Shown here one piece after another: positions 41,205-43,860 of a stretch of DNA of 64,000 nucleotides. The translations under genes were made by a program, and so were the position numbers. The first letter of the stretch is position 1. Every line of letters begins with the position of its first letter. The DNA is taken from the NCBI RefSeq assembly GCF_000027125.1, contig NC_017626.1, one strand, 5' to 3'. The notes under the pieces were generated by a model that searched no databases, had not been told where the DNA came from, and saw only the letters and a program-made list of their open reading frames with translations. This DNA comes from Escherichia coli 042 (GTDB lineage Bacteria > Pseudomonadota > Gammaproteobacteria > Enterobacterales > Enterobacteriaceae).

Positions 41205-41516
41205 TCACTCCTGCCTCCCAATCATATCCCCAAGAAACCTTTTTCCTCGTAATTTTAATCTTGCTTTATCTTCAATGCTAATATTCGATAATTGTAATAT
41301 CAGTCCTAATATTAACTCCTTATCTACCTCTTCTACTTTACAGCCCATAGCTTTAGCTACCTCAGCACCAAGGATGATCTTCAAGCGTGTCTCTGCGCTC
41401 TTGGATAGAGATTTTTCTTTACTCTTAAGGCGATTCAGACGCATTTGAGCTGATGCTATTTTTTGCTTAATGGTTTTTTCTGATCTCGGCTTTCTACCTT
41501 TATCATCCGTATTCAT
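41205..41516 (-). CDS. Small basic protein, TraD/MobC-like relaxase accessory candidate
   Basis: 103-aa ORF with motif ETRLKIILGAEV resembling the TraD-type (R/K)TRRKI.LGG signature; divergent from the relaxase gene; SD aggaaaag. Confidence 0.5.
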   Translation of the reverse strand: MNTDDKGRKPRSEKTIKQKIASAQMRLNRLKSKEKSLSKSAETRLKIILGAEVAKAMGCKVEEVDKELILGLILQLSNISIEDKARLKLRGKRFLGDMIGRQE

Positions 41517-41633
41517 AATTACTTTTCCTTCTAGTTGTCAAAAACATGGAATACAATTAAAAAAGGAAAAGGTCAAACCATAGGCAGAAGGTTGAATACT
41601 TTTTATTCCAGATTAAATAACGCAGCGCGAGAT

Positions 41634-41693
41634 GATTGTTCAAAACAATCACATTGCTGGAACAGGGTTCATCCCTGTTAATGATAGGATTCA
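41634..41693. repeat. Copy A of a repeated element of about 58 bp with two internal inverted repeats
   Basis: gattgttcaaaacaatcacattgctggaacagggttcatccctgttaatgataggatt; nearly identical copy at 56962-57018. Confidence 0.7.
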
Positions 41694-42124
41694 TCTCAAA
41701 AAATGATGTTTTGGTTTTAAAAATATGATATTAGTAAGCTCAAAATAAAAACATGCAACACATACGAATGCAGTCACTAACATTAATTACCTGATACTCT
41801 CCGCGTTACTTATTTTATTGAATCAATGAAAACAATTTTACCTCTTGCTTTTTGACTCTGATTTCTGGTCTTAACCTGTGAATTGTGCAACACATAAAAG
41901 TATTTATAATTTTCACTATTTATTTTAAATTCTGCTTTCCCGCCTTACGGCGAGAGACTAATTTAACTACTTTTGCCCTTACGGGCGTTTTCTAAACACC
42001 AGAATCCAATATTATTATCCTACCTCAACCGTTTATCCGATTCCTACCTTTTTAATTTCACAGTCTGTAAAACTAGAGCTATTATTTAACTATAGAAAAA
42101 CATAAAACATTGTCGTTATTTTTA

Positions 42125-42236
42125 GCTCCTTTAGGAGATATAAAAATAAAGCAATGCCCACCTATACACTGCTACGCAGTGTGTGGGGTCTACCGACGGT
42201 TGCCTGCCGCAGGCTAACACCGTTTCCTTCGGAAAC
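42125..42236. promoter_or_regulatory. Candidate origin of transfer (oriT): cluster of inverted repeats
   Basis: IRs ctcct-tt-aggag, acactgc-tac-gcagtgt, gcctgc-c-gcaggc and gtttcc-ttc-ggaaac in a GC-richer patch between the divergent TraD-like and relaxase genes. Confidence 0.45.
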
Positions 42237-42351
42237 AAGGTCAACGTCAACACCAGAGTTTTTCTTACGAAAAACTAAAACCAGCTGAGTCGTATTGGAG
42301 ATTTATATTTTGGTTTGATATTTAAATTTATTTTGAGGTTGTTTTTATTAT

Positions 42352-43860
42352 ATGGCTATTTTTCATCTGGATTTTAAAATTGTGAAACGTTCTGAAGGCA
42401 GATCTTCCGTTGCGAAAGCTGCCTATCATGCTCGTACACGTATAACAGATGAAAGAACAGGTGATACCTATGATTATAGTCGCCGTACCGATTTATACGG
42501 ACATTTCATATTAGCACCAATTAATGCTCCAGAACATATCGTGAAAGACTCTACAGCATTGTGGAATGAAGTTGAAAGAGTTGAGCGCCAGAGCAATGGT
42601 CAAACATCCCGTTATTTCGATGTTGCCATACCTGCCGAGTTAAACAATGACGACAAGAAAAGACTTGTCCTTGAGTATTGTCAGAAAAATTTCGTTGATA
42701 AAGGCATGATTGCCGATATCGCTTTCCACGATCTTGATAGCGATAATCCTCATGCTCACGTTATGTTGACATTAAAAACCATAGGCCCTGAAGGTTTTGG
42801 TAAAAAAGAAAGAAGCTGGAACGACAGAAAAATGTCTGTTATATGGCGTGAATCATGGGCATCTATGGCTAACAGCTACCTTGCTGCCGCTGGCTCGTCA
42901 GAACGTATTGACCATCGTTCTCTTCAGGCCCAGCATGAAGAGGCATTAGAAAAAGCGGCGGTAGCTTTAGATAATGAAGAAAAAGCGCTATGGCTTGCTA
43001 AAGCCGCTGAAACAAACCGTCCTCCAATGAAGCGTATCCATAGTGCCAAATGGCGTAGTAAAGCAGCACAAGAGCAAAGAGCAGCAGAACAGGCTGTTCG
43101 TGATGCTGCCAAGCAGGAAGCGGTTGAAGTCTACAAGACTTTCAGCGAACTTGATCTTGAAATCGTCGTTGATGTCAGAAGCTTCACCGTGGCTGCTCTT
43201 GCTGAACCAGAAGAGATTGTATTACCAGAAACGCGCTCCGGCTCTTCTTCTCATGAAGCACAAAGTCCTGTATTGGTAGCGCCTATTCCTCATACTCATG
43301 TGCGTGGAGTTAAATCTTACCGCGATAAAGAAAAAGTGAGTAAAGTTGTCATTAATAATATATCAGAACCAAATGTTGCTGATGCTGACATAAACACTCT
43401 TTGGAAAACATCTCCATCTAAAACCAAAAATATGGCATCCAAAAGTACCGCTGAAAGTGTTAAAAGGAAACAGGCTAATCCGCGTCAGGATAATATCTTT
43501 AAACGCTTTACAACGCTTTTGATCGGTTTCTTCAAAGAGAAATTTATATGGGCTAAGAAGAAACCTGATCCTACCGAGATTGAACATGACAGGCATGTAG
43601 CAGAAAATTACGTCTTTGATGAAGTGCTGGGTGTCTATGTATCACGCGCTGACCATGAACAACGAGCCAGATTCAACGGTGATGATAAAGAGTTCTCTGG
43701 TTACAAGCCAACACCTGATGAGATTAAGCGTTTTCCAAGCCGTCTAGCTAATACAGCACAAACTGATAGAGAGCTCGACTACATGCCTTCGCTCGTGGCT
43801 GATAAGAAATCGTTAGCACCTAAATTGAAACCAAATGCTCCCTATAAAAATAGATTATAA
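42352..43860 (+). CDS. MobA/MobL-family (MobQ-type) relaxase
   Basis: N-terminal relaxase signatures: AKAAYHARTRITDERTGDTYDYS (catalytic Tyr region), LWNEVERVERQSNGQTSRYFDVAIPAEL and the histidine triad HDLDSDNPHAHVM; SD gaggt. Confidence 0.85.
   Translation: MAIFHLDFKIVKRSEGRSSVAKAAYHARTRITDERTGDTYDYSRRTDLYGHFILAPINAPEHIVKDSTALWNEVERVERQSNGQTSRYFDVAIPAELNNDDKKRLVLEYCQKNFVDKGMIADIAFHDLDSDNPHAHVMLTLKTIGPEGFGKKERSWNDRKMSVIWRESWASMANSYLAAAGSSERIDHRSLQAQHEEALEKAAVALDNEEKALWLAKAAETNRPPMKRIHSAKWRSKAAQEQRAAEQAVRDAAKQEAVEVYKTFSELDLEIVVDVRSFTVAALAEPEEIVLPETRSGSSSHEAQSPVLVAPIPHTHVRGVKSYRDKEKVSKVVINNISEPNVADADINTLWKTSPSKTKNMASKSTAESVKRKQANPRQDNIFKRFTTLLIGFFKEKFIWAKKKPDPTEIEHDRHVAENYVFDEVLGVYVSRADHEQRARFNGDDKEFSGYKPTPDEIKRFPSRLANTAQTDRELDYMPSLVADKKSLAPKLKPNAPYKNRL

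What the first reader, a model, noticed from the sequence alone, without database searches (positions are those of the whole stretch)
41634..41693. A 58-bp element with two internal inverted repeats occurs twice, 15 kb apart, within the island
Copy A (41634-41693) and copy B (56962-57018) differ at two positions; each has GATTGTT-N4-AACAATC and CAGGG-N5-CCCTG. Both lie upstream of minus-strand genes (the TraD-like gene; the region preceding the Rep-like locus). This could be a shared operator or promoter module co-regulating mobilisation and replication functions, a small dispersed repeat, or a recombination site.
Basis: seen in the sequence. Interest (0 to 1): 0.55.

Follow-up and report, generated by a model that had tools for sequence, protein, structure and literature searches.

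The report
Repeated palindrome module in mobilisable island
A roughly 75-bp DNA module built around an invariant 21-bp palindrome occurs three times (not two) in this ROD21-like mobilisable island, and related islands across Enterobacterales carry it in the same places; it is a real, conserved cis-acting site whose binding partner is unknown, and it is probably not the island's main transfer origin, which I predict lies about 0.5 kb away.

Summary
The repeat is real. Copies A (41622-41700) and B (56950-57028) share a 52-nt core with 2 mismatches. A third, partial copy C (57091-57128) was missed.

The window is E. coli, and the island sits at ssrA. It belongs to the ROD21-like (EARL) family of MobQ/TraD mobilisable islands.

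Every related island I examined, from nine other genera, has B followed about 141 nt later by C. The pair lies in a ~250-nt conserved noncoding module upstream of a rep-like gene, although those genes belong to three unrelated families. A is optional and sits next to traD.

The core palindrome IR1 (GTGATTGT-N5-ACAATCAC) never changes in sequence. The neighbouring stems IR2 and IR4 change by compensatory substitutions.

By positional homology with canonical MOBQ oriTs of related relaxases, the island's own nick site is at 42157-42187, not in A or B.

My best reading (about 0.4) is a shared recognition and control module for a conserved factor, possibly the relaxosome proteins, linking the transfer and rep-like modules. 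Live rivals are secondary MOBQ-type nick sites, single-strand priming signals and a structured RNA leader.

It is a new variant of known kinds of site, of moderate interest.

The parts
41622..41700 (+). Copy A, the full element. Left flank GCAGCGCGAG; IR1 41632-41652 (ATGATTGT-TCAAA-ACAATCAC); GCTG 41656-41659; IR2 41662-41678 (ACAGGG-TTCAT-CCCTGT); TAATGAT; degenerate IR3 41686-41697. It lies 117 nt upstream of the traD-like ATG (41516) and 719 nt upstream of the mobQ ATG (42352).
56950..57028 (+). Copy B, the full element. GCAGCACTTA; IR1 56960-56980 (GTGATTGT-TCAAG-ACAATCAC); GCTG 56984-56987; IR2 56990-57006; IR3 57012-57025 (ATGGAT-TT-ATCCAT). The minus strand reads IR1 + TAAGTGCT GCTAC.
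57091..57128 (+). Copy C, IR1 only: GCAGTGCTAA-GTGATTGTTT-A-AAACAATCAC-TTCGCTG, a near-perfect 10+10 palindrome. It is 141 nt to the right of B's IR1.
56890..57135 (+). Conserved B-C noncoding module. It holds an upstream block (about 56896-56945, TATAGCATTT..CTTAAACG..TATAGGAAAA.TATAT), B, IR4 at 57034-57047 (GCGGC-GATA-GCCGC, which covaries), a purine-rich spacer, and C. It is present in 761 of 5426 E. coli genomes.
42153..42190 (-). Predicted cognate MOBQ oriT core. This is not part of the repeat but is needed to interpret it. The IR is ACACTGC-GTA-GCAGTGT (plus-strand 42166-42182), followed on the minus strand by A + TAGGTGGG | CATT. The predicted nick lies between 42157 and 42156, 195 nt upstream of mobQ.
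41205..41516 (-). traD-like gene (103 aa; PF06412 in homologues), a candidate relaxosome accessory protein.
42352..43860 (+). MobQ-family relaxase (502 aa). The relaxase domain is residues 1-196. The C-terminal 300 aa match no family and give no confident fold.
57693..58391 (+). Rep-like winged-helix ORF (232 aa) downstream of B-C, preceded by four 22-bp iteron-like repeats at 57392-57483.

Best explanation
The element is one copy of a family of cis-acting sites in the backbone of ROD21-like (EARL) mobilisable islands.

Its core, IR1, is a sequence-invariant 21-bp palindrome (GTGATTGT-N5-ACAATCAC, bracketed by GCAGC and GCTG). I take IR1 to be the recognition site of a conserved, still unidentified sequence-specific DNA-binding factor. 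The island's own relaxosome proteins (the TraD-like protein, MobQ) are plausible candidates by analogy.

IR1 sites sit in the two large divergent intergenic regions of the backbone:
- A lies between traD and mobQ.
- B and C lie between a small leftward gene (lost in this window) and the rep-like gene.
One factor could therefore control or organise the transfer module and the replication/establishment module together.

IR2, IR3 and IR4 are short stems kept by compensatory change. They belong to the same module and probably act when the DNA is single-stranded or transcribed.

Shown: the three copies, their family-wide positions, IR1 invariance, IR2/IR4 covariation, independence from the type of rep gene, and a better candidate for the nick site elsewhere.

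Inferred: that a protein binds IR1, which protein it is, and that the effect is co-ordinated control.
For: - Three IR1 sites against 0.3 expected.
- Identical layout in E. coli, Klebsiella, Salmonella, Hafnia, Serratia, Erwinia, Dickeya, Brenneria, Pectobacterium, Pluralibacter and Citrobacter.
- IR1 arms are invariant, or paired in 94% of cells, with a freely varying 5-nt spacer. This is the pattern of a site read by sequence.
- The B-C module is conserved upstream of three unrelated rep-like gene families (14-33% identity), whereas the sequence to the right of C changes with the gene. The sites are therefore not Rep iterons.
- The module and mobQ occur in similar numbers of E. coli genomes, 761 and 806 of 5426.
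- The relaxase domain is 94-98% identical among islands that share IR1.
- In the Serratia island the B-C-rep segment is inverted as a unit, which keeps B-C oriented with the rep-like gene.
- The nick site homologous to the canonical MOBQ oriTs of related relaxases is a different sequence, at 42157-42187.
- Precedents: Ti TraA/TraC/TraD autorepress the divergent promoters at oriT (cited in PMC4700958), and the pMV158 relaxase MobM regulates replication control (PMC5737340).
Against: - No binder is identified.
- Promoter scans place no convincing sigma-70 promoter over IR1. My by-eye -10 candidates differ in spacing between A and B.
- C lies 385-570 nt from the rep-like start codons.
- The whole ~250-nt module is conserved more strongly than a promoter-operator region usually is. 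IR2 and IR4 covary with variable loop lengths, which points to a folded single strand rather than duplex recognition.
- The GCAGC/GCTG flanks are placed asymmetrically (5 nt against 3-4 nt), which a symmetric dimer would not explain.
- One B copy (L005) has a 22-bp instead of a 21-bp palindrome.
- A is absent from the CFT073-type clade although traD and mobQ are present.
Confidence: 0.4

Rival explanations
1. A, B and/or C are additional MOBQ-type nick or termination sites, that is, secondary origins of transfer. They would be used by the island's MobQ or by a co-resident MOBQ relaxase, as in the dual oriTs of ICEclc and R6K.
For: - On the minus strand B reads IR1 immediately followed by TAAGTGCT|GC. 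Canonical MOBQ sites read IR + TAAGTGCG|CCCT (RSF1010 substrates in PMC4814116; consensus in PMC3832669; pSK41/pLW1043 site verified), so 7 of the 8 spacer bases match.
- Related plasmids pVR50F, pN18S0476 and p643bA show the same quasi-symmetric layout, with the nick on the strand antisense to mobQ.
- A has that orientation relative to mobQ.
- MOBQ relaxases are known for relaxed specificity (PMC5789077).
Against: - The positional homologue of the canonical site is at 42157-42187 and reads TAGGTGGG|CATT.
- B, C and A show no significant alignment to it.
- The 8-nt spacer is not conserved in A (CTCGCGCT, CAATTTCT), and its T is not invariant in B (GAAGCGCT in CFT073).
- Directly repeated functional nick sites 141 nt apart (B and C) or 15 kb apart (A and B) would cause abortive or partial transfer.
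- B is also found tandemly duplicated.
Confidence: 0.2
2. The module is a single-strand initiation signal (ssi/sso). Hairpins on the transferred or unwound strand would direct priming by host primase or the primosome, so that the incoming strand, or the lagging strand at the rep-like origin, becomes double-stranded.
For: - Multi-hairpin single-strand folds have z-scores of -4 to -6 on both strands.
- IR2 and IR4 covary.
- An invariant CTG follows IR1 on both strands. On the plus strand the geometry (8-bp stem, 5-nt loop, 3-4 nt spacer, CTG) equals that of phage G4 stem-loop I (8-bp stem, 5-nt loop, 3 nt, CTG; primer start annotated at T3997).
- IR4 is 12/13 identical to the G4 stem-loop I core (12 of 500 shuffles reach the score).
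- The module is independent of the rep-gene family.
- A lies about 0.5 kb into the predicted leading end of the T-strand and B-C lies next to an iteron-bearing origin-like region. These are the two places where plasmid ssi signals are known to occur (own knowledge).
- Cross-genus sequence constancy would fit a conserved host enzyme.
Against: - IR1 is AT-rich and sequence-invariant without compensatory change, unlike a purely structural signal.
- The hairpin order differs from G4.
- Neither IR4 nor IR2 is followed by CTG.
- The Serratia inversion puts the other strand of B-C on the predicted T-strand.
- The MobQ C-terminal region shows no primase-like fold, so there is no RSF1010-type linked primase.
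- ROD21 does not replicate autonomously under laboratory conditions (PMC10655114).
Confidence: 0.2
3. A and B are the 5' parts of long structured RNA leaders, or small RNAs, for mobQ and the rep-like gene. IR1-IR4 would act as RNA hairpins.
For: - The elements share the orientation of mobQ and the rep-like gene, including in the inverted Serratia segment.
- Stems covary.
- Terminator-like hairpins are enriched in the B-C region, 7 against 0.8 expected.
- The mobQ-upstream 600 nt are also highly structured.
Against: - There is no Rfam match.
- IR1 arms do not covary.
- There is no clear strand bias in wobble pairs: 7 G.T against 17 A.C on the plus strand.
- No conserved promoter with a proper -10 lies upstream on the plus strand (by eye, from the alignment).
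Confidence: 0.1
4. The repeat is a chance similarity, a dispersed selfish repeat, or the remnant of a duplicated gene fragment.
For: None beyond the AT-rich context.
Against: - No shuffle reaches the observed counts.
- The copies keep fixed positions in hundreds of genomes and ten genera.
- There are no copies outside this island family, and the only four plasmid hits are island-like insertions.
- Indels in the IR2 loop exclude coding.
Confidence: 0.02

Closest known systems
MOBQ-type origin of transfer (RSF1010/R1162; pSK41/pLW1043 NES)
   Same: An inverted repeat directly abuts an 8-nt motif. B's minus strand reads TAAGTGCT where the canonical motif is TAAGTGCG. The flanks on the two strands are quasi-symmetric, as in pVR50F and p643bA. 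The site is associated with a MobQ relaxase whose closest solved relative is NES (4HT4, E = 4.8e-26).
   Different: The site positionally homologous to those oriTs is a different sequence at 42157-42187. The IR1 arms are unrelated to it. The motif decays in A and C. There are several direct copies per island, and B lies 5-15 kb from mobQ.
Multi-copy operators of mobile-element global regulators (RK2 KorA/KorB sites, AcaCD boxes) and relaxosome autoregulation at Ti oriT (TraA/TraC/TraD)
   Same: Short invariant palindromes are repeated in several intergenic control regions of a mobile-element backbone. One copy lies between divergent transfer genes.
   Different: No regulator is identified and promoter overlap is unproven. 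The sites are embedded in a larger module with covarying hairpins, and their flanks are asymmetric.
Single-strand initiation signals of the G4 type (phage G4 oric; plasmid ssi near oriV and oriT)
   Same: The stem-loop plus CTG geometry matches. The module has several hairpins. The copies are placed next to an origin-like region and in the predicted leading region. The module is independent of the Rep protein.
   Different: IR1 is AT-rich and sequence-invariant. The order of hairpins differs. Sequence similarity is limited to 13 nt of IR4.
Dual origins of transfer (ICEclc oriT1/oriT2; R6K)
   Same: Two similar sites lie kilobases apart in one integrative element, one near the relaxase region and one distant.
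   Different: Here neither copy is the best nick-site candidate, a third copy exists, and function is untested.

Membership tests
MOBQ-type oriT nick region | An inverted repeat is followed at 0-1 nt by the 8-nt motif TAAGTGCG and then the nick. | tested here: inconclusive
   B minus strand matches 7/8 (TAAGTGCT). C matches 5-6/8. A matches 3/8 in this window and varies between islands. CFT073 B reads GAAGCGCT.
MOBQ-type oriT nick region | Positional homology with the oriT of related relaxases: about 100-200 nt upstream of the relaxase gene, on its antisense strand. | tested here: not met
   The homologous site is 42157-42187. The series runs TAAGTGCG (L143), TAAGTGGG (L140-L142), TAGGTGGG (window). 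A is 719 nt from mobQ and B is 13 kb from it.
MOBQ-type oriT nick region | Strand-specific cleavage by the cognate relaxase, and mobilisation of a clone carrying the site. | not testable with these tools
   Needs a nicking assay and mating experiments.
Transcription-factor operator | A palindrome with conserved half-sites and fixed spacing, found at several regulated promoters. | tested here: met
   The arms are invariant or 94% paired. The spacer is 5 nt in all 29 distinct full copies but one. There are three sites per island in two intergenic regions.
Transcription-factor operator | Overlap with, or defined position relative to, a promoter, and a known binding protein. | tested here: inconclusive
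   The promoter scan finds nothing at IR1. Candidate -10 boxes seen by eye differ in spacing between A (14 nt) and B (19 nt). No binder is known.
Rep-protein iterons / origin repeats | The repeat sequence changes with the initiator protein family. | tested here: not met
   B-C is conserved next to three unrelated rep-like families (14-33% identity). Separate 22-bp repeats at 57392-57483 are the iteron candidates.
G4-type single-strand initiation signal | Stable stem-loops with a CTG start site 3' of stem-loop I, and similarity to G4 oric. | tested here: inconclusive
   The stem/loop/spacer/CTG geometry matches for IR1. IR4 matches G4 stem-loop I at 12/13 (12 of 500 shuffles). IR1 is AT-rich and the hairpin order differs.
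IncI1 (R64) oriT mimic | Sequence similarity to the helper plasmid's oriT (NikA repeat plus the ACATCCTG nick region). | tested here: not met
   Local alignment scores lie below the shuffled mean for both strands of A and B.
ROD21-like (EARL) genomic island (context of the element) | A P4-type integrase next to a tRNA/tmRNA gene; an AlpA-type RDF with the adjacent ~850-bp DUF6387 gene; a MobQ relaxase and TraD homologue; an H-NS paralogue. | tested here: met
   tmRNA 35384-35746; int 35871-37142; traD-like and mobQ; two H-NS family genes; HTH 60281-60514; DUF6387 60655-61521. The family definition is in PMC6035254.

The most novel reading that the evidence does not exclude
The universal B-C module, and its optional copy A in the predicted leading region, is a single-strand origin for establishment. 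It would be a host-primed site that converts the incoming transferred strand of a relaxase-only island into duplex DNA before integration. That would make it the first such element defined for mobilisable islands of Gram-negative bacteria.
Probability: 0.2. Interest if true: 0.65.

Novelty: new variant of a known kind. Interest (0 to 1): 0.42.

Why it matters
ROD21-like islands carry virulence and defence cargo in Salmonella Enteritidis, in uropathogenic E. coli (the tcpC island of CFT073 has the same module) and in Klebsiella ST258. About 15% of complete E. coli genomes carry this relaxase.

The papers I could search define no transfer origin or other cis-acting site for the family.

This analysis gives two testable candidates:
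- a predicted nick site 195 nt upstream of mobQ;
- a second, equally conserved noncoding module next to the rep-like gene, whose function is unknown.

Finding what binds or processes IR1 would show how these islands couple transfer with establishment, and which helper functions they depend on.

Tried and rejected
- **Coding explanation.** A 33-codon minus-strand ORF spans B. It was rejected because A is in another frame and the IR2 loops differ in length.
- **Rfam.** Nothing above noise in either region.
- **Helper-plasmid mimicry.** The B-C query hits only 4 PLSDB records, all island-like insertions or mislabelled chromosomes. Similarity to R64 oriT is not significant.
- **"B is the primary oriT."** I held this view until one search showed the canonical-site homologue upstream of mobQ.
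- **GCCCTTACGGG at 41975-41985 as the nick.** This 11/11 match to the pSK41 oriT lies on the wrong strand and at the wrong position relative to the homology series. It is the loop and stem of one of several TTAC-loop hairpins.
- **RSF1010-style relaxase-linked primase.** The MobQ C-terminal 302 aa has no Pfam, PDB or PADLOC match, and its AlphaFold model is poor (pLDDT 54, pTM 0.18), so I ran no fold search.
- **Host regulator motifs** (CRP, FNR, Fur, LexA, DnaA, MatP, SlmA and others). Compared from memory only; none fits.
- **Genome-contig scan.** Only about 12 of 120 loci were true hits.
- **More distant relative L140.** It has no IR1 in the 18 kb available.
- **Strand asymmetry of wobble pairs.** Weak, 17 against 7.
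- **Crossover at a nick.** The mosaic of flank and core types at A has its junction inside the IR1 arm, not at a putative nick.

Full report
**1. Observation**

The repeat finder pairs 41622-41704 with 56950-57032 at 81% identity over 83 nt. Inside 41634-41685 / 56962-57013 only two bases differ. Beyond that a 1-nt gap is needed and the copies diverge. An exact 27-mer is shared where none is expected.

The first inverted repeat was mis-described. The conserved form is GTGATTGT-N5-ACAATCAC (IR1), bracketed by GCAGC on the left and GCTG on the right. B has a third small palindrome, ATGGAT-TT-ATCCAT (IR3), which is degenerate in A.

Searching for IR1 finds a third site, C, at 57102-57120, 141 nt to the right of B. 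It has IR1 and both flanks but no IR2 or IR3. That makes 3 sites against 0.30 expected, and none of 100 shuffles reaches 3.

**2. Context**

The window is E. coli chromosome, 100% identical to a RefSeq genome. A low-GC island (36-62 kb) follows the tmRNA gene at 35384-35746. It encodes:
- a P4-type integrase;
- a small TraD-like protein (41205-41516, minus strand), divergent from a MobQ relaxase (42352-43860);
- two H-NS paralogues;
- DotA/TraY-like and TraW-like genes;
- a 232-aa winged-helix "rep-like" ORF (57693-58391);
- an AlpA-type HTH next to a DUF6387 gene.

This is the gene set that defines the ROD21-like (EARL) islands (PMC6035254; PMC10763509), here inserted at ssrA. None of the papers I found defines an oriT or any other cis site for this family.

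**3. Comparative picture**

The 101-nt A query matches 452 of 5426 complete E. coli genomes, with a median of two places per genome, all chromosomal. The 246-nt B-C module matches 761 genomes and the 5' part of mobQ matches 806.

I read 18 related islands: E. coli at the ssrA, phe, leu, asn and ser tRNA loci; a Klebsiella plasmid-borne copy; and Salmonella, Hafnia, Serratia, Erwinia, Dickeya, Brenneria, Pectobacterium, Pluralibacter and Citrobacter.

- All have B followed by C, 139-144 nt later (164 nt in three). The pair lies in a ~250-nt noncoding block that is 75-90% identical across genera.
- To the right of C the sequence changes with the downstream gene. That gene belongs to three unrelated families: the window type, a 233-aa type at 30% identity, and RepL-like at about 16%. 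B and C are therefore not Rep iterons. The window has its own 22-bp repeats at 57392-57483.
- A is optional. It is present at the traD-distal edge of the conserved mobQ-upstream block in one clade. It is undetectable in L006, L131 and CFT073, where traD and mobQ are intact.
- Some islands carry B twice (L121, L131, L135).
- In the Serratia island the B-C-rep segment is inverted as a unit.
- The CFT073 copy lies in the serU island that carries tcpC.

**4. Anatomy and variation**

I aligned 29 distinct full copies.
- IR1: the arms are invariant or nearly so, with three pairs that never vary and 94% of cells paired. The 5-nt spacer varies freely.
- IR2: 97% of cells are paired, three of six pairs show double changes (CAGGA/TCCTG, CAGTGC/GCACTG, CAGGC/GCCTG, GGAG/CTCC), and the loop is 2-5 nt.
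- IR4 (57034-57047): it shows G:C, T:A and A:T at the same pair in different islands.
- Overall, 8 pairs carry double changes against 2.5 in shuffles (0 of 500 shuffles reach this).

Each copy folds as a single strand into the expected hairpins on either strand, with z-scores of -4 to -6.

So IR1 is read by its sequence, while IR2 and IR4 are kept as structures. There is no clear strand bias in wobble pairs.

**5. Is it the origin of transfer?**

The relaxase domain is closest to NES of pLW1043 (4HT4, E = 4.8e-26) and to MobA of R1162. Canonical MOBQ sites are an inverted repeat followed by TAAGTGCG|CCCT (PMC4814116; PMC3832669; pSK41/pLW1043 sequence confirmed).

On the minus strand B reads IR1 + TAAGTGCT|GCTAC, which I first took for the nick region. 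The small plasmids whose relaxases are 40-48% identical (pVR50F, pN18S0476, p643bA) show that the canonical site lies 100-130 nt upstream of mobQ on its antisense strand. Their repeat carries quasi-symmetric flanks on the two strands.

Representatives at 53-71% relaxase identity settled the matter. The same position upstream of mobQ reads:
- ...GCGATGTA TAAGTGCG|CTCT (L143);
- ...GCAATGTA TAAGTGGG|CATT (L141, L142);
- ...GCGACTGTA TAAGTGGG|CATT (L140);
- ...GCAGTGTA TAGGTGGG|CATTGC (this window).

That last sequence is the near-invariant hairpin at 42161-42187, for which one island has a compensatory stem variant.

The island's cognate nick is therefore predicted between 42157 and 42156 on the minus strand, 195 nt upstream of mobQ. 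The traD side would enter the recipient first. A lies about 470-520 nt into that leading side.

A, B and C do not align significantly with this site. The 8-nt motif is variable in A and not invariant in B. Directly repeated functional nick sites would truncate transfer. I therefore do not file the element as the oriT, although weak or secondary use by a relaxase is not excluded.

**6. What it most likely does**

The facts to explain are:
- a sequence-invariant palindrome at three fixed places;
- two of those places in a universally conserved module, one optional;
- independence from the neighbouring genes on both sides;
- orientation kept with the plus-strand mobQ and rep-like genes;
- covarying stems alongside.

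The reading I rank first (about 0.4) is a recognition site for a conserved factor, placed in the two divergent control regions of the backbone, that ties the transfer and rep-like modules together. The relaxosome proteins are candidates by analogy with Ti TraA/TraC/TraD autorepression and with MobM of pMV158 (PMC4700958; PMC5737340).

The weaknesses of this reading are the lack of a binder, the inconclusive promoter overlap, the asymmetric flanks and the origin-like degree of conservation.

Three rivals stay open.
- **Secondary nick sites (0.2).** See section 5.
- **A single-strand priming signal (0.2).** IR1 + 3-4 nt + CTG has the geometry of phage G4 stem-loop I. IR4 matches the G4 stem-loop I core at 12/13. 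The two locations, leading region and origin-like region, are where plasmid ssi signals occur. Against this, IR1 is AT-rich and invariant, and the relaxase carries no primase-like domain.
- **A structured RNA leader (0.1).**

ROD21's RepL-like gene is not needed for replication, and that island stays at one copy per chromosome (PMC10655114). The "rep" label itself is therefore uncertain.

**7. Verdict**

The element is a new variant of known kinds of cis-acting site in a known island family. Interest is moderate (0.42). It would rise if the module proves to be a single-strand establishment origin or a second transfer origin.

Noticed in passing
window 42153-42190 (minus strand): Predicted cognate MOBQ oriT. 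The hairpin ACACTGC-GTA-GCAGTGT is followed by A + TAGGTGGG|CATT, with the nick predicted between 42157 and 42156. This rests on a graded homology series with canonical TAAGTGCG sites upstream of related relaxase genes. The papers I searched describe no oriT for ROD21-like islands.
   Followed up: yes
window 41750-42351: The whole ~600-nt block upstream of mobQ is nearly invariant across genera. It is packed with small hairpins, several with TTAC or TTCG loops (41939-41954, 41974-41987, 42202-42214, 42223-42237, 42256-42277). It also holds two TGCAACACATA repeats (about 41757 and 41887). It could be a long structured leader or relaxosome assembly region.
   Followed up: partly
window 56402-56482: Four tandem 21-bp units, each a CTGACT-N4-AGTCAG palindrome, lie just upstream of the 254-aa minus-strand ORF 55471-56235, which matches no family. 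They look like a centromere or operator array.
   Followed up: no
window 57392-57483: Four 22-bp iteron-like repeats (GTTATAG..CTATAAC) lie 210 nt upstream of the 232-aa winged-helix ORF. They are specific to this rep-like gene type.
   Followed up: partly
window 57034-57047: IR4 (GCGGC-GATA-GCCGC) covaries across islands. It is 12/13 identical to the core of phage G4 oric stem-loop I. On the minus strand it is followed by a T-rich run, which makes it terminator-like.
   Followed up: partly
L002, L006, L008, L121, L129, L132, L134, L138 (320-390 nt left of B); absent from window 56236-56950: A small conserved minus-strand gene (MNNIK..., 74-110 aa) is divergent from the rep-like gene in many related islands. 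It has been lost from this window's island, yet the B-C module is intact.
   Followed up: partly
window 41622-41640 compared with L002, L008, L129: Copy A is a mosaic. Two left-flank types (GCAGCGCGAGA and GCAGAAATTGA) combine with two core types (B-like, and CAGGC-TT-GCCTG) in all four ways. This indicates recombination within the IR1 arm.
   Followed up: partly
L138 (E. coli CFT073, serU island): The uropathogenic tcpC/TIR island of CFT073 belongs to the same family. It has B and C upstream of a RepL-like gene but no copy A.
   Followed up: partly
window 50325-54609: DotA/TraY-like (886 aa) and TraW-family genes sit in an island that otherwise lacks a conjugation apparatus. Related islands carry PilV/PilS thin-pilus genes. 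Together these point to dependence on IncI-type (MPF_I) helper plasmids.
   Followed up: no
window 42952-43857: The C-terminal 300 aa of MobQ are much less conserved than the relaxase domain (48-78% against 94-98% identity). They match no family and are predicted to be largely disordered or helical.
   Followed up: partly
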